Assembly: GCA_965209055.1 (NCBI GenBank)
Contig: OZ242374.1
Coordinates: 4,480,001-4,544,000, forward strand
Source: Acidobacteriota bacterium
GTDB taxonomy: Bacteria; Acidobacteriota; UBA6911; RPQK01; JAJDTT01
Length of the DNA: 64,000 nt
Direction of reading: 5' to 3'
In this document: piece by piece, positions 1,997 through 28,886 of the stretch
How the letters are laid out: each line of letters begins with the position of its first letter
Position numbering within the stretch: position 1 is the stretch's first letter
Notes under the pieces: generated by a model
Told to the model about the DNA's origin: nothing
The model's database searches: none
Seen by the model: only the letters and a program-made list of their open reading frames with translations
Program-made: the position numbers and the translations under genes

Positions 1997-4186
1997 ATGC
2001 GCTGGGGCATGGCCTGGGCCCTGATCCTGCTCCTGATGTGTCCGGCTCTGAGGGCCTTGGACGGAAGACTTCTCTTCCCCGACGGGACCCCGGTAGCAGG
2101 AGCCCAGGTCACGATCCTGGAACATCCCGGTCAGAGCCGAACCGACCAGCAGGGTAGATTCCGCTGGTCACCCGACCCTCCCGTGCCCTTCGAAGTCCGG
2201 GTGGAACTCCCAGGCGGACACGACACCTTGCACGCCGTCGTCCGGGAGACCGTCTCTGAAGGGACTCTGGAGTTGGTCGTCCGGCCGCTCTTCCGAGAGG
2301 ACCTGACGGTGACGGCCGGCAATCCGGCTCGTACCGGGACGACGCCTGCCAGCGCCTTGGAGTTGGTGACCCACGAGGAATTGGCTCAGACCCGGCCCTC
2401 CCGGCTGATCGAAGCCATCGAACGAATCCCCGGCGTGGCTCGGGTCTCAGCGGGTCACGCCGCGGTGCCCTCCATTCGAGGTTTGGCACGGGGACGAACG
2501 TTGATTCTTCTGGACGGCGCCAGAGTCATCTCGGAAAGGAGAGTCGGTCCCAGCGCGACTTTTCTGGATCCCTTCTTCCTGGACCGGATCGAAGTCGTTC
2601 GCGGCCCTGGATCCGTGGCCTATGGATCCGACGCCTTCGGAGGCGTGATTCACGCCCAGACTCGAAAACCGCGCCCCGAATCGACGTATGGCGGCCGATT
2701 CATGGGAACCCTCGGCTACGGAATGCCCGAGCAGAGCGCGGGTGTGGAACTGAGCCGCAGCCTGGAATCGGGTTCCGTATTCTTTTTGGGGAGCATGCGG
2801 AATTACGGCGACTACCGGAGTTCCGGAGTCACCGTGGACAATTCAGCCGCGCGCAACCGTTCGTTCCTCGCGGGCACCCTGCTGCGCGTCGCGGGAGGAG
2901 AACTCTCCCTTGGATGGCAGACCGACCGCGGCCACGATCTGGGCCGGCCCACTTTGCGCTCACCCCACATGCGGACCTTCTACCCGGAAGAGAACTCCGA
3001 CCGAATGCACCTCGCGTTCGATTCGAAGCCCATCGGCGGCTTCGACCAGGTCCGGATCGAAGGATCGATGGGCCGATACGCCCTCATCACCGATCGGGAA
3101 CGCCTCCCTGCACCAAACCGGCCACGCCAACTGCAGAGGTCCCGGGTCGCCGCCCGCCACCTCGATTTCCGCGTGCAGGCCATCTCCCCGCTTAAGTGGA
3201 TCCGGTTGGAGTTGGGGTTTGACGTCAACGGCCGTTTCGGACTCCACTCCGAGAACACGACCCGCAGCTTCGACGCCGGGAACCGAACCACCGGAACCCT
3301 TGCGGCCGCATCCATCGAGGATGCGAGGCGCATCGACCTGGCGCCATTCCTCTCCGCGGAGTTGCCGGTCAACTCCTATCTGTCCCTCTGGGCAGGCGCC
3401 CGATGGGATCAGGTGTCCAGCTCGAGCCGCGGGTCGTTGGGAAACTTCGACAGGATCAACCGGGCGTTCTCCGGCTTCTTTGCGGTCGTCGCGCGGCCGC
3501 TGCCCCCGCTTCAGCTCACGGCTCAACTCTCCCGGGGCTTCCGGGAACCGACACTTTCGGACCGCTATTTCCAGGGGATCAGCGGCCGCGGCCTGATTCA
3601 CGGCAACCCCAACCTGGTGCCGGAAACCAGTCGGCAGTGGGACGTTTCGGCCCGTTGGTCCGGAAGCGACTGGCGTTGGGACCTGTTCCTCTACCGGTAC
3701 CAGATCCGCCAGTTGGTGGAGCGTTTCGAAGCGGAACCCCAGCACTTCTACTTCCGCAATCGCGGATCGGCCCTGTTGACCGGAGTGGAGGTGGAATTAC
3801 ATCGTCACATCGGCGAGGGGATGTCGCTGGGAGTCGGGGGACACGCGTCCGCCGGCCGGACCCGAGAGGATGGGAGTCCCCTCGACGACGTCCCGGCCCC
3901 TTCAATTGCCTTGATCATTGGAAAAACGCTCGGTTCCCGGGGCCACCTATGGCTCCAGGGCCGTACCTTTGCCCGCGACTCCAGATCCGGCCCCACGGAA
4001 GCTCCGACCCCGGGTTTCGCCACCCTGGATCTCTCCTGGAGTTGGCTGTTGGATTCCCAGACCCAGCTCCGTTTCCTGGTAAGAAACCTCACCGGCAAGG
4101 ACTACCCGGCCAGCCCCGACCGCTGGTCCGTTCCGGCCCCCGGCCGCGGTCTTCTCCTAAGTCTAATGTATACTCTCAGTGATTAA
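1997..4186 (+). CDS. TonB-dependent receptor
   Basis: Start re-called at ATG 1997 (MRWGMAWALILLL signal); plug motifs PSIRG, LILLDG, RIEVVRGPGSVAYGSDAFGGVI; barrel GNPNLVPE, VRNLTGKDY. Confidence 0.9.
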   Translation: MRWGMAWALILLLMCPALRALDGRLLFPDGTPVAGAQVTILEHPGQSRTDQQGRFRWSPDPPVPFEVRVELPGGHDTLHAVVRETVSEGTLELVVRPLFREDLTVTAGNPARTGTTPASALELVTHEELAQTRPSRLIEAIERIPGVARVSAGHAAVPSIRGLARGRTLILLDGARVISERRVGPSATFLDPFFLDRIEVVRGPGSVAYGSDAFGGVIHAQTRKPRPESTYGGRFMGTLGYGMPEQSAGVELSRSLESGSVFFLGSMRNYGDYRSSGVTVDNSAARNRSFLAGTLLRVAGGELSLGWQTDRGHDLGRPTLRSPHMRTFYPEENSDRMHLAFDSKPIGGFDQVRIEGSMGRYALITDRERLPAPNRPRQLQRSRVAARHLDFRVQAISPLKWIRLELGFDVNGRFGLHSENTTRSFDAGNRTTGTLAAASIEDARRIDLAPFLSAELPVNSYLSLWAGARWDQVSSSSRGSLGNFDRINRAFSGFFAVVARPLPPLQLTAQLSRGFREPTLSDRYFQGISGRGLIHGNPNLVPETSRQWDVSARWSGSDWRWDLFLYRYQIRQLVERFEAEPQHFYFRNRGSALLTGVEVELHRHIGEGMSLGVGGHASAGRTREDGSPLDDVPAPSIALIIGKTLGSRGHLWLQGRTFARDSRSGPTEAPTPGFATLDLSWSWLLDSQTQLRFLVRNLTGKDYPASPDRWSVPAPGRGLLLSLMYTLSD

Positions 4187-8301: not shown

Positions 8302-8414
8302 GGCAGGAGGGGGGACTGTTGGTCCCTTAATCCCCCCTCGGCGACTGGGAAGTGTAGAGGGGGACTCCGTCTCCCTAACCCCCCTTCGGCGGTAGGAAAA
8401 CCGCCGCTCCTTAC
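8302..8414. repeat. REP/REPIN-like extragenic palindromic repeat, intact copy between convergent genes
   Basis: AGGAGGGGGGACTGTTGGTCCC ... GGGGGACTCCGTCTCCC ... TCGGCGGTAGGAAAACCGCCGCTCC; the same modules recur at 12797, 15124/17899-18021 and 58333-58450. Confidence 0.8.
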
Positions 8415-11998: not shown

Positions 11999-12799
11999 AT
12001 GAACATGCACCGAGCGGCGGATACTCCGAGCGCCTTTCGGGAACGGTGGAACGGCTGGCTCAATTTCTCCTTGGCCGCATCCCTGGTTCCCTTCTCCTAT
12101 CGGTTCCCTCCCCTGGACCGCATGGTCGATATGGTCCGCCGGGATGAGGGAGTCCGGGTCCTGAGCGGAAGACAGGGAGACCGCATGGACGAGACCGACA
12201 TCTCGCGCCAATTCCGGTCCCTTCCCATCCAGGAGGCCCTGGACTCACCATTCCAGATGTCCCATTTCGACCTTGCCCGGTTCCAGCGACCGGGCGGGAT
12301 CCTGGAGGGACTGGAGGAGCAGGTGATGGTTCCCTGGAAGCGTTTCCTCCGTTCGGCCGGCTTCACTTGGCGGAGATGCTTCCCCATCCTGTTCTTCTCG
12401 GGTCCGGGCTGCGCCACCAACTACCACATGGACCTCTCCCACGTCCTGGCCTGGCAGATCTACGGGACCAAGCATTTCCATGGCCTGACGGATCCCGGCC
12501 GCTGGGCGCCCCTGGACAAGGTGGTGCAGCAAGCCCGCCGGGAGGAGTTGTCCAAGCCTCGCAGACTAAAGCCCGAGGATGTCCTCACTTTCGTCATGAA
12601 GCCGGGCGACTGCCTCTGGAACCAGCTCCTGACGCCCCACTGGGTGGAAGCAAGCTCGGAGACGGCCGTGAGCCTGAACCTCTCTCACGGAGGACTGCGC
12701 TGCCAGGGCCGGCTCGCGCCCCAGGAGCAAGCCTTGGAAGAGTGGTGGAAGACCCACCCTGACGAAGTCTGGCTGGGACCGCCGCATCTGCTGGAATAG
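11999..12799 (+). CDS. Cupin/JmjC-like Fe(II) oxygenase
   Basis: TNYHMD, WQIYGTK, MKPGDCLW...PHWVE, VSLN (HxD...H triad). Confidence 0.7.
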   Translation: MNMHRAADTPSAFRERWNGWLNFSLAASLVPFSYRFPPLDRMVDMVRRDEGVRVLSGRQGDRMDETDISRQFRSLPIQEALDSPFQMSHFDLARFQRPGGILEGLEEQVMVPWKRFLRSAGFTWRRCFPILFFSGPGCATNYHMDLSHVLAWQIYGTKHFHGLTDPGRWAPLDKVVQQARREELSKPRRLKPEDVLTFVMKPGDCLWNQLLTPHWVEASSETAVSLNLSHGGLRCQGRLAPQEQALEEWWKTHPDEVWLGPPHLLE

Positions 12800-12823
12800 G
12801 AGGTGGGACTGTTAGTCCCCCAC
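12797..12823. repeat. REP-like palindrome, short copy (candidate empty attB)
   Basis: TAGGAGGTGGGACTGTTAGTCCCCCAC; core 12805-12819 is identical to the att cores at 15132 and 17899. Confidence 0.75.
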
Positions 12824-13821: not shown

Positions 13822-15120
13822 ATGATGAGACGTCCCTTCCAGTTGCTCGCCCCGACCGCGCTCGCCATCGTCATCGGCGCCTGCCAGCCGGCTCCCGAGC
13901 CAAAGACGCCATCCGACCCGCCCAAGATCCGTCTGGAGGTGGGTGATCCCGTGACGGTGCCTACCGGCCAATACCCGGGCCTGTCCTACGGGCCCCGGAT
14001 GGTGACCCTGCCGGACGGAAGAGTCCTGGTCGGCCGGGGAGAGATCGCCTTGACCACGACCGACTCGGGGGCGACATGGGACGTGGGCCCGGCCATCGCC
14101 AGGCCGCACCTGCTTCCTCTCCGGGACGGAAGCTATTTCTTCCTGAAGGGCCGCGGTTCCGCCACCGGCGAGCCGGGGCTGTTCTCCCTGGAAATGGCGC
14201 ACGTCCAGTCCCTGGATGAAAACGCCACCGAAGAACGGATCTCCTGGTCCCCCGCCACGGCGCGCGTCGACCGTTGGACGCCGCTGACGGCCGACAACGA
14301 GAGCGAAGTGGACTACCTGGGCGTCGGGGGCCCGTTCCTGGAGTTGGATGACGGGACCCTGCTGGCCGCCTGCTACGGGAATTTCAAGGGAGACACGGTG
14401 CCCATGGAGGGATTTCCCGCCACCAGCGGCCAGAAGTGGTTCAAGTACCGAACCTACCTGTTGTCCTCCAGCGACGGCGGCGCCACCTGGGAGTACCTCT
14501 CCACCATCGCCTACGACGGAGTCACGGGCCAGGAGAGCTTCTGCGAACCGGCCATGGTGGACCTTAGCGGCGGGGAGTTGTTGGCGGTGATGCGGACCGG
14601 CCGTTTCGCGCCCATGTTCCAGGTCCGTTCCCTGGACGGCGGCAATACCTGGCAGGAACCGGAGTCCATGCACATCCTGGGTCTGGCGCCCCAGATGGTC
14701 CTGCTGGAGAACGGCGCCCTCGTGTGCAGCTTCGGCTGGAGACGTCTGAAGGTGGGCTACGGCCATGGACTCAACGACGAGGGCGGACCGTACCCGGTCG
14801 CATTGCGGGATTACCAGGAACGCTATCTTCAAGACGTGGGCATCGAGAACCCGTCCGAAGCGGCCGGCGATTACGTGATGGTCAGCCTGGACAAGGGGAA
14901 GACCTGGTCCGAGCCCCGCAAGTTCGCCGAGCCCCTCACCTCCGGGTACACTCTCTTGGCCGCCACCGGACCCGACACCGTCCTGGTCATGTCAGCCAGA
15001 CTCACCATTCCGGGCCAGTCCCAGGAGCGTCACCTGGAGATCTGGGAGCGGGAATGGCCCCAGTGGTCCGACAAGTCCGTCGTGGTAAGAGTCGCCCGAA
15101 AGATCCGCGTCGTGCTGTAG
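13822..15120 (+). CDS. Sialidase/BNR-repeat lipoprotein
   Basis: RBS AAGGAG then ATG 13822; lipobox IVIGAC; Asp-boxes TTDSGATW, SSDGGATW, SLDGGNTW, SLDKGKTW. Confidence 0.8.
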   Translation: MMRRPFQLLAPTALAIVIGACQPAPEPKTPSDPPKIRLEVGDPVTVPTGQYPGLSYGPRMVTLPDGRVLVGRGEIALTTTDSGATWDVGPAIARPHLLPLRDGSYFFLKGRGSATGEPGLFSLEMAHVQSLDENATEERISWSPATARVDRWTPLTADNESEVDYLGVGGPFLELDDGTLLAACYGNFKGDTVPMEGFPATSGQKWFKYRTYLLSSSDGGATWEYLSTIAYDGVTGQESFCEPAMVDLSGGELLAVMRTGRFAPMFQVRSLDGGNTWQEPESMHILGLAPQMVLLENGALVCSFGWRRLKVGYGHGLNDEGGPYPVALRDYQERYLQDVGIENPSEAAGDYVMVSLDKGKTWSEPRKFAEPLTSGYTLLAATGPDTVLVMSARLTIPGQSQERHLEIWEREWPQWSDKSVVVRVARKIRVVL

Positions 15121-15131
15121 GAATAGGAGGG

Positions 15132-15146
15132 GGGACTGTTAGTCCC
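15132..15146 (+). repeat. attL core
   Basis: GGGACTGTTAGTCCC, identical to 17899-17913. Confidence 0.85.
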
Positions 15147-15183
15147 AACTGTCCCACAGTCAAAGACTACCGAACGTTAACGT

Positions 15184-15196
15184 TTTCAATATGTTA
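15184..15196 (+). promoter_or_regulatory. IHF-like site in left att arm
   Basis: TTTCAATATGTTA vs consensus WATCAANNNNTTR (1 mismatch). Confidence 0.55.
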
Positions 15197-15254
15197 CCGG
15201 GTTCTTCGCCGGACCGGTAAGGTGTTTGACTCCCCATGTTTGACGTGCTGAACA

Positions 15255-15269
15255 GGCAACAAACAGGCA
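15255..15269 (+). repeat. Putative integrase arm-type site (left)
   Basis: GGCAACAAACAGGCA, identical to 17791-17805; internally tandem (ACAGGCA). Confidence 0.7.
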
Positions 15270-15393
15270 GCCGAATCGGTTCCTGACAGCCGCCCCGCCC
15301 TTTTTTCCCCTTCCGGTGCCTGGCTCAGAGCCCTTATCAGTTAGGCTTTGCTGACCGTTTGGCTCCACCGCAGGACTCAGCCTGAGGCCGAAG

Positions 15394-15621
15394 GTGTCCG
15401 GCTTCGAACGGCTCGGCATTCCCAAGCATCAGCATCCCCGGCAAGTGTACTACGGCACGGTCGGGAAGACCCGGCACTACTTGGCGTTCAAACTGCCGAT
15501 TGCCGTCGAGGACGACAGGGCCGTCCTCGTCGGTGTCGATCCGGAGCCTGTGGCCACCAAGGGTCTGCGCTCCTGGATGGCGGCGCACCGGCGGTGGAGG
15601 AGCGCTCCGTCTCAGTTGTGA
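15394..15621 (+). CDS. Small hypothetical protein or gene fragment in the element
   Basis: 75-aa ORF with protein-like composition (RQVYYGTVGKTRHYLAFKLP); start uncertain. Confidence 0.3.
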   Translation: MSGFERLGIPKHQHPRQVYYGTVGKTRHYLAFKLPIAVEDDRAVLVGVDPEPVATKGLRSWMAAHRRWRSAPSQL

Positions 15622-15831
15622 TCGAGATGACCACTCTCGGCCGCCGCAAAGATTTTTGGAGACTCGTTTCGGGTGTGCGTCAAGGGGTCTCGCGCCCGAT
15701 CCGGGAGTGTGAATGGGACATGGGGGGTGGATTCACAAAAAGCGGTCCCGGTGATTCACACCTCCGCTTTCCCCGATCGTTTTTCCTTTCAGTCAGTTAC
15801 GGCCCCCTACCCCCGGACGCCGGCGCCCGCA

Positions 15832-15959
15832 CGGGGAGATCGGAGGTGGACGGGAGCGACCCCCCCTTTTTGCTGCCCGGTGCGGGCGCGGGGGTGTTGC
15901 GCGATTCACATCTGCGCAACACCCCCTGGGGGGGTCGCTCCCGTCTCAATTATCCTTGC
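15832..15959 (+). other. Conserved branched stem-loop element, copy 1 (candidate oriT, ssDNA origin or ncRNA)
   Basis: Outer stem GACGGGAGCGACCCCCCC/GGGGGGGTCGCTCCCGTC enclosing two hairpins, followed by TATCCTTGC; covarying homolog at 28762-28886. Confidence 0.7.
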
Positions 15960-15999
15960 AGGAAGGCCCGGAGGAAGACCGTGGACCGGGTGGACCTGT

Positions 16000-16386
16000 C
16001 CCCCCAAACCCCCCAGTGGCGCCAGAACCCCTGGCGGCTCACATTGCCGCCAGTGAACCTGACGCTCGTCGCGGGTGGGCCAGCCCCCCCGAACCCCCCG
16101 GATGCGAAGAGACACATACCAACTGAAAATCCCTTCCAGAGAGCGCCGAGGCCCTGGGTTCGAGCCTCCCCACCGTGTGGAAAATCAGAGATTTCCCACA
16201 GGGTGCGTCGTTTTGCCGACCCTACAATCAGCGCCCCCCACCAAAGAAAGTCTGCTCCCGGCTGGAAGCCGTCCGAGACCGCGCGAGGGACCCATTCCTA
16301 TGGGACGCGACAAACAGGAGCGCGTGAAAAAGGGTCAGGCAGGGTGAGCCTGACTCTTTGAGGGCGCCACTGGGGGGTCTGGGGGG
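16000..16386. repeat. 24-bp inverted repeat pair in the non-coding core of the element
   Basis: CCCCCCAAACCCCCCAGTGGCGCC (16000-16023) vs GGCGCCACTGGGGGGTCTGGGGGG (16363-16386), 1 mismatch. Confidence 0.7.
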
Positions 16387-16744
16387 AAAGGTTCCCCCCG
16401 GTCCGTCATCCGTTCCGGCTGGCCGGCCTCGCGGACCAGGACGTCACCGGCCCGCCGTTGGAGGACCTCGACCACGGTCGCGGTCCAGGTCTCTTGGCCC
16501 CGCGTCGTGATCGGGATGGAGCCGCCGAGAAGGCGCTCGGGGAGCTTGCCGGTGGCCGCAAGGCAGGACGAACTCCAGGAGCCCTCTTCGAGCTTGTAGG
16601 GACTCCACGCCGACGATACGGAGCTTTCGCAGGTGTTTTGCCATCGACACCGGAGAGGTTGGACAGGGGCCGTGCTGGCGGCCATGGACAGGTGGTACGA
16701 TTCGCCCCATGGCGAAGAACCCGGATCCGGAAAGGAGGAGATGC

Positions 16745-17956
16745 ATGGGCATCTACAAGGTGAAGGATCGCCGGGGGAGACGACGTTTCGTCGTCAGCAA
16801 GTACTGGCCGAACGGATCCGGTCGGCTCCGAATGTACGCCCCCAACTACCGGAGCGCACAGGCGCTTCAAACACGAATCGAGTCCAGCATCCTGGACGGC
16901 ACATGGAAGCAGCTCAAGGAGGAGCTCGCCGGCGGGAAACGCACCATCTGGACGGTCCGGAGCTTCTACGAGCGTTTCTTCGAGGAGTATTGCAAACCTC
17001 GTCTGCGCTCTTTGCGCCGGTACACGCTCTCGTTCAAGAGCCTCAACGCCATGCTGGGGAACATTCCCTTGAAGGAGTTCCAGCGCAAGGACCTCCACCG
17101 CTACGTCGCGAAACGGAAGGGGCAGGTCCAGCCGGCCACGGTGAACCGCGACATTGCGGCCCTCAGCAAGCTGTTTTCCTACGCGCTGGAGTGCGGGGAA
17201 GTGGACACGCACCCGCTGGTGAGATTCCCCAAACTCAAAGAACCCAAGAAGGTCTTCCGGCCCTTGACGGTTCAACAGTTCCGCGACCTGGTCGAGGCGG
17301 TGGACAACCCTTACCTGCAAGCCATGATCGCGGTGATCGGCGAGACGGGGATACGGAAAGGCGAAGCGTTGTCGCTCACCTGGAAACGGTTGGACCTGTC
17401 CCGGAGGCTGCTATGGGTGGAGTTCACCAAGGACGACGAGCCGAGGGAGATTCCGCTCTCGAAGTACGCTGCCGGATATCTGGCCGGGCTGGTTCGCTAC
17501 CTGAACATCCCTTACGTCTTCGTCAACACCCGGACGGGGACGAAATGGGTGAATCCCGACAAGCCTTTGCGCCGGGCCGCCGAGCGGGTGGGGTTGAAGG
17601 TCGGATTTCACGACCTGAGACGCTTCCGGTGCAGCCATTGGCTGATGCAGGGGGTGGACGTGAGGACGGTGCAGAAGCTGATGGGGCACTCATCGATCAG
17701 CACGACCATGCGCTACGCGGGTTACGTCAGTTCTCATGCACTCGCCAGCATACGGGAGGCACAGGCTACCGAAGACTCACAAATGCGACCGGCAACAAAC
17801 AGGCAACGGGCAGGAAATAGGGGAATGATTAGAGAAGAGCAGTGGCGTAAACCCTTGAAAACACAAGCACACGCCCCAAGCTCAGCAGGACAGAGCACGG
17901 GACTGTTAGTCCCCCATTCTTCAGTGTCGCTACTGGATACGATGGGTGGTAGGTGA
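16745..17956 (+). CDS. Tyrosine recombinase / phage-type integrase
   Basis: RBS AAGGAGGAG then ATG 16745; SAM-like PATVNRDIAAL; catalytic TGIRKGE (R), FTKDD (K), FHDLRR (HxxR), LMGHSS (H), TMRYA (Y) all intact. Confidence 0.95.
   Translation: MGIYKVKDRRGRRRFVVSKYWPNGSGRLRMYAPNYRSAQALQTRIESSILDGTWKQLKEELAGGKRTIWTVRSFYERFFEEYCKPRLRSLRRYTLSFKSLNAMLGNIPLKEFQRKDLHRYVAKRKGQVQPATVNRDIAALSKLFSYALECGEVDTHPLVRFPKLKEPKKVFRPLTVQQFRDLVEAVDNPYLQAMIAVIGETGIRKGEALSLTWKRLDLSRRLLWVEFTKDDEPREIPLSKYAAGYLAGLVRYLNIPYVFVNTRTGTKWVNPDKPLRRAAERVGLKVGFHDLRRFRCSHWLMQGVDVRTVQKLMGHSSISTTMRYAGYVSSHALASIREAQATEDSQMRPATNRQRAGNRGMIREEQWRKPLKTQAHAPSSAGQSTGLLVPHSSVSLLDTMGGR
17791..17805 (+). repeat. Putative integrase arm-type site (right)
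   Basis: GGCAACAAACAGGCA, identical to 15255-15269. Confidence 0.7.
17848..17860 (-). promoter_or_regulatory. IHF-like site in right att arm
   Basis: Minus strand TTTCAAGGGTTTA vs WATCAANNNNTTR. Confidence 0.5.
17871..17914 (+). pseudogene. Degenerate tRNA 5' half containing the attR core
   Basis: ACGCCCC-AA-GCTC-AGCAGGACA-GAGC-A-CGGGA-CTGTTAG-TCCCC has canonical acceptor/D-arm/anticodon-arm spacing; no T-arm or 3' acceptor strand follows. Confidence 0.75.
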
Positions 17957-18021
17957 AAGTGCATAGGGGGACTCCGTCCCCCTGCCCCCCCTGGTCGGCG
18001 ACAGGAAAGTCGCCGCTCCCT
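17914..18021. repeat. Right part of the interrupted REP/REPIN-like repeat
   Basis: GGGGGACTCCGTCCCCC...TCGGCGACAGGAAAGTCGCCGCTCC matches the right part of the 8302-8414 copy. Confidence 0.8.
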
Positions 18022-18027
18022 CGGCGG

Positions 18028-19776
18028 CTAGAAAGCCGCTGCTCCATCCGTTTCCGGTTCGTAGACGGGGTCGCCCCGATGAAGGCGGATGGCCACGCGG
18101 AGAGTCTGGTTCATGGCCCTTTGCGTCGGAGCGTGAGCCGCCAGATAACGGGCCGCTCCGACCATCACCAGATTCCTTTCCTCCCGATCCTCGGTCTCAC
18201 CGTATTGCCGAACGGCCGCCTCCAGCATCTGGAAGGTGTGGAAGTTGGCGTCTTCCCGCATCAGGCTCTCGGTCAAGGCCGAGATGAGCGGGCCGCCGGA
18301 CCCGCCGCCTTCCAGGTAGGTCCAGACCATCTGTCCGGCCCGGTCCGTCTCCTGCTGGTGGTTCATGAGTGTCAGGAGGCGGGACCGGATCGAATTCCCC
18401 CCGGATTCCGCGCCGGCCGCCGCCCGGCTTGAAGGCAGTCTTGCGGGCGGGATGTTGAAGAAACGGTCCAGGTAGACCCGCATGGCTCCGTGAAACACGC
18501 CCCTTGTCAGGTCCGGCGACTGGTTGCGTTTAAGCAGTTGATGCAGGGCATTGGAATAGGTGAAGGTGTGAAGGACGGCGATCCAGTCGGCCAACTCGTT
18601 CTGGACGTGAAAGTGGACGATGCGCAGCGCCGCGGCATAGGCCACCGCCTGGGCCAACTCCACCGGTTGGGCGCCCCCACGCAACGCCGCCAGCAGTGCC
18701 TCGATGGGGGTGTGAGGATCGTCGCTGAAAAGGGTTTCGGTGAAGTCCTGCGGCTTGGTCCAGATCTTCCCCTGCCCCGATTCCAGAGCCTCGGGAATCT
18801 GAGCCACGGCCTGGCGCAGCACCGGCACCAGATCGATGGGGTGCCGCCACGGGTTCCTCTCCTCGCTTCGAACCGCCAGGCACAGAGGCCGGATCAGGGC
18901 GGGCAGCAACCGGCCGGCATGTTCCCAGCCGATGCGGTCCAGCAGTTCGAAAGCCTTGTTCACGAAGTCGATGACGTGACCCCCATCCAGGTATACGTGG
19001 TCCGTGGCCGCGGCCCCGACCAGGTCGGTCAGTTGCGCGCTCGTCATCCCCTTGTGGACGGCGGTCAGAAGGCAGCGCTCGGCGCCCTCGGTGCTGCGGA
19101 CCTCCACGAAGTAGCGGAACCAGCGTTTGAGATGCTCTGCCGGGATTTCCTGATTTCGAAGGGGCGGGATCTCGAATTTGGGGGTGCGGCCGGCGCAGTC
19201 CCGGGCGATGTGGACCAGGCCATGGTACAGGGGCGGGATCCGCTCCGTCCCCTCCAGGAGGTCGCAGACATTGGCCATGGCGCTGAGAATGGTGAGGCCG
19301 GAACTCCAGTCCCGGCGATGCCGGACGCCGTAGAGCGCGCCCTGCCGCGCGACCTCATGGTGGGAGACGCCGCTGTGGTGCAGTCCCACCACCGACTTGC
19401 CCATGATCAAGCTGAGGTTCTGCTCCATTCCCTCCTGGAGCCGCCGGCTCCAGCGCTGGACCGGATCGACCGGCGGCGGCGTGACGTCCAGGTAGACCTC
19501 TCCGCCCCGGACCTCCACACGGAAGGAATCCACGTCGTCCGCGAACAGGTTGAAGGTGCATCCGCTCACCAGGTCGAAGCGCGCATGGTGCCAGTAGCAG
19601 GTGAGGATGCCGTCCTCCACGGTGCCGCGGTGCAGTGGAAAACCCATGTGCGGACAGCGGTTGTCGACGGCGCGCAGCTCTCCGTCGTGGTCGAAGATCA
19701 CGATGGGGACCGGACCCTTGGACACCACCAGGGGACTCCTGGACCGAACTTCCTCCAGCGATCCGACATGAATCAT
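18028..19776 (-). CDS. Rieske [2Fe-2S] domain protein with helical C-terminal region
   Basis: NRCPHMGFPL and TCYWHHARFD; C-terminal His motifs GGHVIDF, LHTFTY, FHTFQ. Confidence 0.85.
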   Translation of the reverse strand: MIHVGSLEEVRSRSPLVVSKGPVPIVIFDHDGELRAVDNRCPHMGFPLHRGTVEDGILTCYWHHARFDLVSGCTFNLFADDVDSFRVEVRGGEVYLDVTPPPVDPVQRWSRRLQEGMEQNLSLIMGKSVVGLHHSGVSHHEVARQGALYGVRHRRDWSSGLTILSAMANVCDLLEGTERIPPLYHGLVHIARDCAGRTPKFEIPPLRNQEIPAEHLKRWFRYFVEVRSTEGAERCLLTAVHKGMTSAQLTDLVGAAATDHVYLDGGHVIDFVNKAFELLDRIGWEHAGRLLPALIRPLCLAVRSEERNPWRHPIDLVPVLRQAVAQIPEALESGQGKIWTKPQDFTETLFSDDPHTPIEALLAALRGGAQPVELAQAVAYAAALRIVHFHVQNELADWIAVLHTFTYSNALHQLLKRNQSPDLTRGVFHGAMRVYLDRFFNIPPARLPSSRAAAGAESGGNSIRSRLLTLMNHQQETDRAGQMVWTYLEGGGSGGPLISALTESLMREDANFHTFQMLEAAVRQYGETEDREERNLVMVGAARYLAAHAPTQRAMNQTLRVAIRLHRGDPVYEPETDGAAAF

Positions 19777-28549: not shown

Positions 28550-28761
28550 AGCACCCGAAACGGATCAAGACGTCTCGGATCTGAGGATTCCTCTATATTG
28601 TGGCCCCAAGCAAGCAGCGCAACAGGGACTGGTCCAACTACGAGCCCATTGAGATCCGAATGACGAGCGTTGTCGTTGGTGACAACATATGGCATGCGCA
28701 CAAGGACACGCCCCATCGGATGGATTCGGGCGGCACGGATATCGGGTCCGCCCGCGCCGAT

Positions 28762-28886
28762 CGGGGAAATCGGAGGTGGACGGGAGCGCCCCCCTTTTCG
28801 CTGCCCGGATCGGGCACGGCGGCGTTGCGCAACTTACCTTTGCGCAACGCCGCCTGGGGGGGCGCTCCCGTCCCATCAATCCTTGC
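28762..28886 (+). other. Conserved branched stem-loop element, copy 2 (candidate oriT, ssDNA origin or ncRNA)
   Basis: Homologous to 15832-15959 with compensatory stem changes; ends in AATCCTTGC. Confidence 0.7.

What the first reader, a model, noticed from the sequence alone, without database searches (positions are those of the whole stretch)
15121..18021. Minimal tyrosine-integrase element that targets a multi-copy REP-like palindrome
Seen: a 2.8 kb segment with one intact integrase is flanked by perfect direct repeats GGGACTGTTAGTCCC. Joining 15146 to 17914 rebuilds a complete intergenic repeat with the same module order as the intact copy at 8302-8414. The same core sits unoccupied at 12805-12819, and at 8312-8326 with 1 mismatch. 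Known: REP targeting is documented for IS elements (IS1397, IS621, ISPpu9/10), whereas lambda-type integrases usually use single-copy tRNA genes. Inference: this integrase uses a dispersed REP as a neutral, multi-copy attB.
Basis: partly seen in the sequence, partly recalled or inferred. Interest (0 to 1): 0.9.

Follow-up and report, generated by a model that had tools for sequence, protein, structure and literature searches.

The report
Integrase element that inserts into REP hairpins
A small mobile element carrying one lambda-type integrase has left its ancestral tRNA-Arg target, now inserts into a repeated hairpin found after many genes, and has reached about 26 copies in this genome.

Summary

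- **The element.** Window 15132-17913 is a 2.78-kb element with one intact tyrosine integrase, bounded by perfect 15-bp repeats GGGACTGTTAGTCCC.
- **Copy number.** The genome holds 26 full-length copies of this integrase (88-100% aa identity). They lie in elements of 2.7-21 kb, including a 100% identical twin with different flanks.
- **Target.** Every copy sits in a GC-rich hairpin (TAGGAGG-stem-loop-stem-CxTTCTTC). This hairpin family has 67-477 copies in all nine genomes of the genus, including one genome without the integrase.
- **Empty sites.** Precise empty sites exist in relatives for two sister elements and for the window copy's right junction.
- **Subfamilies.** Each carries a different attP core that matches a different hairpin variant. 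One uses the same hairpin in the opposite orientation.
- **Origin.** The integrase-proximal end is a decayed 5' half of tRNA-Arg. An 84%-identical relative with the same arms sits in a real tRNA-Arg(TCT) gene, so the hairpin-targeting clade descends from a tRNA-targeting one.
- **Limits.** Excision and circles were not observed. The window copy's two flanks are not ancestral neighbours; it lies at an inversion breakpoint.

Verdict: a new variant of a known kind, of high interest.

The parts
15132..15146 (+). attL core: left copy of the 15-bp repeat GGGAC-TGTTA-GTCCC. The host half of the hairpin (TAGGAGGG) lies to its left.
15147..15312 (+). Conserved left (P') arm of the element. It is homologous in all subfamilies and in the G003 island that sits in tRNA-Arg.
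15251..15271 (+). Two tandem copies of AACAGGCA[AG]C, candidate arm-type integrase binding sites.
   Evidence: 3 matches in the window against 0.14 expected, all inside the element; columns conserved at >=90% in 23 elements
15660..15975 (+). Structured 'hairpin block' of unknown function, with a long stem at 15843-15951 and a nested hairpin. It is present in every element and also elsewhere in the genome.
   Evidence: z -4.9; 66 hits in G000; compensatory changes
16745..17956 (+). Tyrosine integrase gene. The conserved protein is 16745-17824 (360 aa). The non-conserved tail is read through the P arm, the tRNA-like half and the right core into host DNA.
   Evidence: (R204 K229 H289 R292 H315 Y324 conserved)
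17798..17807 (+). Third copy of AACAGGCAAC, a candidate arm-type site of the P arm. It lies inside the 3' end of the integrase frame.
17855..17862 (+). TTGAAAAC box. A TTGA.A core is conserved 12-16 nt before the tRNA-like half in 23 elements, and a similar box is seen in the distant tRNA-Arg-linked relatives.
17871..17913 (+). Decayed 5' half of a tRNA-Arg: acceptor strand, D arm GCTCAGCAGGACAGAGC, and an anticodon-arm equivalent that is the core.
   Evidence: 24 of 24 right ends best match a tRNA-Arg among 68 tRNAs
17899..17913 (+). attR core: right copy of the 15-bp repeat. The host half (CCATTCTTC) lies to its right.
17914..18030 (+). Further host repeat modules: GGGGGACTCCGTCCCCC at 17966-17982 and CGGCGAC...GTCGCCG hairpins.
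12805..12819 (+). Unoccupied exact core, 5 nt after the stop codon of the gene at 11999-12799.
8312..8326 (+). Unoccupied core with 1 mismatch, inside a composite repeat at 8302-8414.

Best explanation
The segment is an integrative element moved by its own lambda-type tyrosine integrase, which has an arm-binding, a core-binding and a catalytic domain.

**Proposed mechanism (inferred).**
- attP spans about 270 bp. It has a P arm inside the 3' end of the integrase gene, with one AACAGGCAAC site and a decayed tRNA-Arg 5' half.
- Its core is GGGAC-TGTTA-GTCCC. Its P' arm carries two AACAGGCA[AG]C sites.
- The integrase pairs the attP core with an identical core in a host hairpin and exchanges strands in or next to the loop. 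The 15 shared bases then flank the inserted element.

**The target (shown).** It is not a tRNA gene. It is one variant of a genus-wide family of GC-rich hairpins, often placed just after stop codons, so many neutral attB sites exist.

**The lineage (shown).**
- It arose from an integrase that targets the anticodon loop of tRNA-Arg.
- It has radiated into subfamilies whose attP cores match different hairpin variants.
- One subfamily uses the same hairpin in reverse.
- Larger members carry restriction-modification and other cargo.

Shown here: the boundaries, the empty sites, the copy number, identical copies at different loci, purifying selection and the phylogenetic nesting. Inferred: catalysis, the cleavage positions, the role of the arm sites, and the excised circle.
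For: **The enzyme**
- Pfam Phage_integrase E 2.1e-26.
- R204, H289, R292, H315 and Y324 are invariant, and K229 nearly so, in 39 homologs.
- The AlphaFold model has mean pLDDT 87.9, with an N-terminal three-strand sheet plus helix.
- The best fold match is full-length lambda integrase, 1z1b, E 1.5e-13 over 341 columns.

**Copy number**
- tblastn gives 26 full-length copies at 88-100% aa identity.
- 25 of 27 integrase-side ends pair with a left end, 2.7-21 kb apart: 9 A, 7 B, 5 C and 4 D.

**Recent movement**
- A 100% identical 2782-bp twin lies at G000 6054127-6056908 with other flanks.
- e3004 and e6074 are 99.96% identical.
- A 10.5-kb D element is 100% identical at two loci.

**Selection**
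- dN/dS is 0.09-0.22 in 36 of 36 pairs of integrase copies.

**Empty sites**
- G008:C6 has a single core between the e3004 flanks, which are 97% identical to G000.
- G001 and G008:C71 are empty at the e4661 site, and that element's flanks are adjacent in 5 of 5 relatives.
- G001 has an empty site at the window's right junction.
- G001 has a degenerate core directly after the BNR-repeat gene's stop codon.

**The hairpin family belongs to the host**
- GGGGGAC-N3-7-GTCCCCC occurs at 67-477 sites in 9 of 9 genomes, with 0 in the controls.
- The empty 17-mer is in G001 17 times although G001 has 0 integrase matches.
- G000 holds 79 empty C-type hairpins.
- 17 of 29 A/B target sites lie <=45 nt after an open frame of >=100 codons, against 179 of 2000 random places.

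**Core matching**
- The stretch shared by attL and attR is 15 bp in A, 14 bp and inverted in B, 11 bp in C and 7 bp in D.
- Further core variants occur in G004 and other relatives.

**Origin**
- 24 of 24 right ends best match a tRNA-Arg 5' half.
- G003 has a 47-kb island in tRNA-Arg(TCT) with a homologous left arm and the AACAGGCAAC repeats.
- In the tree, the hairpin clade (29 rows, support 100/91) nests inside the tRNA-Arg-linked rows.
Against: - **No excision product was seen.** Only Logan contigs were on offer. They show neither a circle junction nor an empty site for this copy, and none exists in the assembly or the fetched loci.
- **No excisionase or other known protein** was found in 15147-16744.
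- **The window copy and its twin both lie at synteny breakpoints**. For these two copies a simple filled-versus-empty comparison with both flanks is impossible.
- **Assembly doubts.**
  - The genome is a metagenome-type assembly with 7.4% estimated contamination.
  - Its contig ends inside an element.
  - Some junctions could therefore be mis-joins at repeats.
- **Large pairings are unverified.** Pairings of 10-21 kb were made by nearest left end and not checked as single units.
- **Hairpin status is partly open.**
  - The hairpins did not pass the terminator scan.
  - Their link to a REP transposase is open; there are only two weak Y1_Tnp hits.
Confidence: 0.88

Rival explanations
1. The hairpins with the TGTTA loop are not pre-existing host repeats. 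They are sites seeded by the element family itself, as footprints or solo att sites left by past insertions and excisions. On this view the element creates its own targets.
For: - The exact empty 17-mer is found in only 5 of 9 genomes of the genus.
- The cores resemble the tRNA-Arg anticodon arm that the element carries.
- Only 1 empty D-type hairpin was found, against 4 D elements.
Against: - Conservative site-specific excision restores attB and makes no new site.
- G001 has 17 empty sites and 0 integrase matches.
- The wider hairpin family has 67-477 sites in 9 of 9 genomes.
- In relatives, hairpins with other loops sit at the same place after the same stop codon.
- G000 has 79 empty C-type hairpins against 5 C elements.
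Confidence: 0.07
2. The integrase acts on the target as a folded single-stranded hairpin, as integron integrases do with attC, and not on duplex DNA as lambda integrase does.
For: - Every target is a perfect stem-loop.
- The same hairpin is used in both orientations by closely related integrases, and A and B rows are intermixed in the tree.
Against: - The fold, the arm-binding domain and the conserved arm repeats are those of a heterobivalent lambda-type system.
- The ancestral target is an ordinary tRNA anticodon arm, a classic duplex core site.
- Both junctions carry the full shared core.
Confidence: 0.08
3. The copies spread by homologous recombination, segmental duplication or assembly error, and the integrase is no longer active.
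For: - Two of two A copies examined first lie at rearrangement junctions.
- The contig ends inside a copy.
- Estimated contamination is 7.4%.
Against: - Flanks differ at every copy and end exactly at the core.
- Clean single-element insertions exist relative to relatives.
- dN/dS is 0.09-0.22.
- The same family, with other cores, is seen in several independently assembled genomes.
Confidence: 0.03

Closest known systems
Genomic-island and prophage integrases that recombine in the anticodon loop of a tRNA gene (sublocation classes described by Williams in 2002, recalled; the Islander database, PMC4383910, seen only as a search listing and abstract)
   Same: - Lambda-type heterobivalent tyrosine integrase.
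- The core is a symmetric stem with a loop of about 7 nt.
- attP carries a copy of part of the tRNA.
- A close relative in G003 does exactly this at tRNA-Arg(TCT).
   Different: - The window element and 24 others in this genome are not in tRNA genes.
- The carried tRNA half is decayed and regenerates nothing.
- The target is multi-copy.
- The element carries the 5' half, not the usual 3' half (the 'usual' is recalled).
REP-targeting insertion sequences of five IS families: IS3, IS110, IS4, IS256 and IS5 (examples named: IS1397 and ISKpn1 of IS3; IS621, ISPpu9, ISPpu10 and ISPa11 of IS110). Source: PMC1525189, passages read.
   Same: Insertion into a repeated extragenic palindrome as a neutral, multi-copy target, with several copies per genome.
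   Different: - Those use DDE or DEDD transposases; that paper lists no tyrosine recombinase.
- Here a tyrosine integrase acts with attP and attB identity, and the element can carry 1-18 kb of cargo.
phiRv1 of Mycobacterium tuberculosis, which integrates into the repeated REP13E12 element (recalled, not checked here)
   Same: A site-specific recombinase uses a repeated chromosomal element as alternative attB sites.
   Different: - phiRv1 uses a serine recombinase and a target of about 1.4 kb present in a few copies.
- It shows no radiation of core variants.
Integron integrase IntI with attC sites (PDB 2a3v; title seen)
   Same: A tyrosine recombinase whose sites are stem-loops that vary in sequence; gene cargo is gathered next to the integrase.
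   Different: - The best fold match here is lambda integrase, with an arm-binding domain.
- Whole elements move, not cassettes.
- IntI-specific features were not tested.
mv4 integrase, whose specificity was re-programmed by changing core sequences (bioRxiv 10.1101/2023.11.06.565760; listing and abstract only)
   Same: The specificity of a tRNA-targeting tyrosine integrase depends largely on the core and overlap sequence, and can be shifted.
   Different: That is a laboratory re-programming of one phage integrase. Here the shift occurred in nature many times within one clade.

Membership tests
Tyrosine site-specific recombinase, lambda-type heterobivalent integrase | Catalytic domain with the conserved R-K-H-R-H-Y residues | tested here: met
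   - Pfam PF00589 scores 93 bits against a cut-off of 27.
- R204, H289, R292, H315 and Y324 are invariant and K229 is >=90% conserved in 39 homologs.
- The alignment to PDB integrase 5c6k covers these motifs.
Tyrosine site-specific recombinase, lambda-type heterobivalent integrase | N-terminal arm-binding domain as well as the core-binding domain | tested here: met
   The model has strands 2-7, 13-20 and 27-32 plus helix 35-51, with pLDDT 83-90. Foldseek aligns 341-349 columns to full-length lambda integrase 1z1b. Binding itself was not tested.
Tyrosine site-specific recombinase, lambda-type heterobivalent integrase | Arm-type repeats in attP on both sides of the core | tested here: inconclusive
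   AACAGGCA[AG]C occurs three times in the window against 0.14 expected. All three are in the element arms and are conserved in 23 elements and in the G003 island. Protein binding was not shown.
Tyrosine site-specific recombinase, lambda-type heterobivalent integrase | Core of inverted repeats around a 6-8 bp overlap that is identical in attP and attB | tested here: met
   The A core is GGGAC-TGTTA-GTCCC. The stretch shared by attL and attR is 15 bp in A, 11 bp in C and 7 bp in D. Cleavage positions are unknown.
tRNA-gene-targeting genomic island | Integrated within a tRNA gene, which is regenerated at one junction | tested here: not met
   ARAGORN finds no tRNA at the ends of the window element or at any of the other G000 elements. 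The feature is met only by relatives L006/L092, L007, L010 and L012.
tRNA-gene-targeting genomic island | attP carries a fragment of the target tRNA | tested here: met
   24 of 24 right ends best match a tRNA-Arg 5' half among 68 tRNAs. The fragment is decayed.
REP / BIME-type extragenic palindromes (the target) | Short GC-rich palindromes, highly repeated and extragenic | tested here: met
   - 87 sites of GGGGGAC-N3-7-GTCCCCC in G000 and 67-477 in 9 of 9 genomes.
- 79 C-type sites in G000.
- 17 of 29 A/B sites lie just after an open frame.
REP / BIME-type extragenic palindromes (the target) | Association with a REP-associated Y1 transposase (RAYT) | tested here: inconclusive
   G000 has two weak Y1_Tnp matches, at 30.8 and 23.6 bits. 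Their flanks were not examined.
REP-targeting insertion sequences | A DDE or DEDD transposase as the only gene | tested here: not met
   The only recognisable gene is a tyrosine integrase.
Integron | IntI-type integrase with attI and an array of attC cassettes | not tested
   The PDB sequence match to IntI4 covers only residues 272-327. No cassette array lies next to the integrase. IntI-specific motifs were not examined.

The most novel reading that the evidence does not exclude
One integrase scaffold (>=88% identical proteins) recombines at least ten different cores, and does so in either orientation. The choice of target would then be written almost wholly in the element's own 7-15 bp attP core, not in the protein. 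That would make this clade a naturally re-targetable tyrosine integrase: it tracks whichever hairpin variant is abundant in its host, ferries defence genes into neutral sites, and drives large inversions between occupied hairpins.
Probability: 0.4. Interest if true: 0.85.

Novelty: new variant of a known kind. Interest (0 to 1): 0.8.

Why it matters
- **An unusual combination.** Tyrosine integrases are usually treated as single-site enzymes tied to tRNA genes. REP targeting is documented for transposase-based insertion sequences.
- **A shift caught with intermediates.** Here a clear evolutionary series runs from real tRNA-Arg, through a decayed tRNA half plus anticodon-arm-like hairpin, to many core variants. 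It shows how an integrase can leave a single-copy target, gain dozens of neutral landing sites, and multiply like an insertion sequence while still carrying cargo such as restriction-modification systems.
- **A natural test set for specificity.** Matched attP and attB pairs are given by the genomes, so the system can be used to ask how core sequence and protein divide the work of target choice. That question bears on engineering integrases.
- **Genome rearrangement.** The family may also explain large inversions in these genomes.

Tried and rejected
- **Reads.** The look-up of sequencing runs offered only Logan contigs. Laying four runs of one sample gave contigs that break at the element ends, and 'joints' from 15146 to 17957-17996 that are cross-matches of other hairpin loci (one carries the letters of the window's 8327 site). 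There is no verdict on excision.
- **Local junction search.** A script found 0 matches at <=6 mismatches to the circle junction or to the empty site of this copy, in G000 and in all fetched loci.
- **Other genes in the element.** Pfam and PHROGs gave no hit for the open frames at 15394-15621, 15673-16056, 16075-16347 and 16335-16685. Copies differ by many indels there, so I do not call these genes and found no excisionase.
- **Rfam.** Only two chance-level matches in 14800-18300.
- **Transfer-origin idea for the hairpin block.** No match in G000 to relaxase families PF03432 or PF08751, or to the coupling protein PF02534. The idea is left without support.
- **Terminator idea for the target.** The simple scan did not flag the hairpins. 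I call them REP-like, not terminators.
- **Empty site for the window copy with both flanks.** Impossible, because the flanks lie in different loci in all 8 relatives. The same holds for the twin. For e2974 one flank is repeat-rich and gave no clear answer.
- **My census regex** for generic hairpins was poor, and its output is not used.
- **Literature.** Six searches and passages of three papers gave no report of a tyrosine integrase element targeting REP-type repeats. Subscription journals and supplements were not seen, so this is 'not found', not 'not in print'.


Full report
**1. The observation**

- The window is G000:C1:4480001-4544000, in a single 6.08-Mb contig.
- GGGACTGTTAGTCCC stands at 15132-15146 and 17899-17913. 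There is an exact third copy at 12805-12819 and a 1-mismatch copy at 8312-8326. That is 4 matches against 0.19 expected, and 0 of 100 shuffles reached 4.
- Between the repeats lies one integrase frame, 16745-17956 (+), with Pfam Phage_integrase E 2.1e-26.
- The frame runs through the right repeat. Among the copies, conservation ends near residue 360.
- G+C content does not set the segment apart: 0.58-0.68, as in the flanks.
- ARAGORN finds no tRNA at the ends.

**2. It is one of many**

- The 15-mer (R at position 10) occurs 39 times in the genome, with 0 in the reversed control.
- BLAST and tblastn show 26 full-length integrase copies of 88-100% aa identity, plus fragments.
- All copies share four parts:
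  - a left arm of about 180 bp;
  - an internal structured block;
  - the integrase;
  - a right arm.
- A script paired 25 of 27 integrase-side ends with a left end 2.7-21 kb away. The other two ends are the real tRNA-Arg gene and a broken copy. One more pair (3141056/3166104) is evident by eye.
- The large pairings were made by nearest left end and are not verified as single units.
- Cargo in three larger members comprises:
  - a type III restriction-modification pair;
  - a type ISP enzyme;
  - a Schlafen/AlbA_2 protein;
  - a trypsin-like protein;
  - an LRR protein;
  - a GIY-YIG protein.

**3. The junction logic is site-specific recombination**

| Type | attP (element) | attB (host) | Shared stretch |
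|---|---|---|---|
| A | ...GAGCAC-GGGACTGTTAGTCCC-AACTGTCCC... | TAGGAGGG-GGGACTGTTAGTCCC-CC[AG]T[TC]CTTC | 15 bp |
| B | the same core, inverted | the same host hairpin, read in reverse | 14 bp |
| C | core containing GATTTCCAATC | GGGGCGATTTCCAATCGCCC | 11 bp |
| D | core containing TTTCCTA | GGGGGTTTTCCTACCCCC | 7 bp |

- B elements lie the other way round in the same target as A elements.
- Relatives add cores with loops TTTCCT, TTCCA, TTCTA, TTTTA and TTTCA in GTCC or GTCG stems.
- A and B integrases are intermixed in the tree, while C forms a clade with support 98/95.

**4. Evidence of movement**

- The window element has a 100% identical 2782-bp twin at 6054127-6056908 with other flanks.
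- e3004 and e6074 are 99.96% identical.
- A 10.5-kb D element is 100% identical at two loci, one of them invaded by a group II intron.
- dN/dS among the integrase copies is 0.09-0.22 in 36 of 36 pairs.
- Precise empty sites:
  - In G008:C6 the two flanks of e3004 are adjacent and overlap on one core copy.
  - At the e4661 site the flanks are adjacent in 5 of 5 relatives. G001 and G008:C71 carry the exact empty core there, though a neighbouring 27-nt hairpin differs.

**5. The window copy itself lies at a rearrangement**

- In all 8 relatives, the left flank (a gene with BNR repeats) and the right flank (a gene with a Rieske domain) lie about 570-850 kb apart, in opposite orientation.
- The ancestral neighbour of the Rieske gene is a gene whose product resembles FG-GAP repeat proteins (my reading of its sequence; no family search was run). 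In G000 it abuts the integrase end of a B element at 3925221.
- The ancestral neighbour of the BNR-repeat gene abuts that B element's left end at 3904154.
- This fits an inversion of about 570 kb between two hairpins. Whether the integrase or homologous recombination made it cannot be told.
- Each side taken alone still supports the core as the breakpoint:
  - G001 has an empty TAGGAGCGGGGACTGTTAGTCCCCCATTCTTC before the Rieske gene.
  - G001 has a degenerate core right after the BNR-repeat gene's stop codon, and other relatives have hairpins with other loops at that place.
- The twin's flanks are also non-adjacent in relatives.
- A mis-join in the assembly cannot be excluded. However, swapping flanks between the two identical copies does not restore the order seen in G001.

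**6. The target is a host repeat**

- GGGGGAC-N3-7-GTCCCCC has 67-477 sites in 9 of 9 genomes of the genus, with 0 in the controls.
- The empty A/B 17-mer count per genome is: G001 17, G008 14, G000 8, G007 1, G003 1, and 0 in four others.
- G001 has no match to the integrase at E <= 1e-30. G004 has 14 matches, and G005, G006 and G007 have 3 each.
- G000 holds 79 empty C-type hairpins.
- 17 of 29 A/B target sites lie <=45 nt after an open frame of >=100 codons, against 179 of 2000 random places. Often the TAG of TAGGAGG is itself the stop codon.
- The terminator scan did not flag them.
- A link to a REP transposase is open.

**7. Origin from a tRNA-Arg target**

- The 30 nt before the core read like the acceptor strand and D arm of a tRNA. 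For 24 of 24 right ends, the best match among 68 tRNA 5' halves is a tRNA-Arg: TCT in 22 and TCG in 2.
- In G003, an integrase of 84% identity ends in an intact tRNA-Arg(TCT). The 5' part of that tRNA is repeated 47 kb away, followed by a left arm homologous to the window's, including the AACAGGCAAC repeats.
- A 71% relative sits at tRNA-Arg(TCG). Relatives of about 50% identity sit at tRNA-Arg(TCT) in the opposite orientation.
- The tree nests the hairpin clade (29 rows, support 100/91) inside these rows. Its root is at the midpoint and long branches are flagged.

**8. The enzyme and attP**

- R204, H289, R292, H315 and Y324 are invariant and K229 nearly so.
- The model (pLDDT 87.9) has an N-terminal sheet-plus-helix domain. 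It aligns best to full-length lambda integrase.
- AACAGGCA[AG]C occurs at 15251, 15262 and 17798 and nowhere else in the window, against 0.14 expected. It is conserved in 23 elements.
- I read these repeats as arm-type sites. That is an inference.

**9. Comparison with what is known**

- REP targeting is described for five transposase-based IS families (PMC1525189, passages read).
- Six literature searches found no tyrosine-integrase case.
- The element works like a tRNA-targeting island integrase, but it fails that family's defining feature of sitting in a tRNA gene.

**10. Verdict**

- It is a new variant of a known kind. Interest is 0.8 and confidence in the main explanation is 0.88.
Supplements were not requested.

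Noticed in passing
window 15660-15975; partial copy at window 28749-28886: A structured block of about 300 nt has 66 BLAST hits in G000, folds with z -4.9, and shows compensatory changes in both stems. It also occurs in G001 (14 hits) and in G023, a genome of another family (10 hits, up to 91% identical), both of which lack this integrase. It also follows a P4-type integrase at G000 816800-818035. Its function is unknown, and no Rfam family matches.
   Followed up: partly
G000 784166-786078, 3708107-3710022, 5306068-5307983: A group II intron (RVT_1 plus a maturase domain; 5' end GTGCG) sits between codons 3 and 4 of the integrase gene in three elements. The three intron copies are 100% identical.
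   Followed up: partly
G000 about 3902616-3903819, 3231831-3232850, 781632-782651: An insertion sequence with a DDE_Tnp_1 transposase has three copies at >=99.6% identity. Two are seen cutting a second repeat hairpin after GGGGGTTAACAACCC, so this may be another element that targets the repeats.
   Followed up: partly
window 15132-17913 with G000 3904154-3925235; G000 6054127-6068576: Large rearrangements end at occupied hairpins. One is an inversion of about 570 kb relative to 8 relatives. Another is a scrambled cluster of four elements in the last 55 kb of the contig.
   Followed up: partly
G000 6074465-6077182 (contig end): The contig ends inside an element, and the start of the contig does not continue it. 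The assembly is therefore not closed at this repeat.
   Followed up: no
G000 2104898-2104985 and five other loci: ARAGORN calls six tRNA-Leu(taa) genes. One lies inside the B element at 2095927-2106506. Two 'tRNA-Val' calls (3841235, 5203736) fall in hairpin blocks and are probably false.
   Followed up: no
L021 (G002), positions about 2685-3441: The 3' end of the gene next to the BNR-repeat gene is repeated three times at a spacing of about 299 bp in G002, and is duplicated in G000 (3904117-3903959 and 3902435-2277).
   Followed up: no
G000 1142970-1143203: A weak Y1_Tnp (IS200/RAYT-type) match lies about 600 bp outside the integrase end of the C2 element.
   Followed up: no
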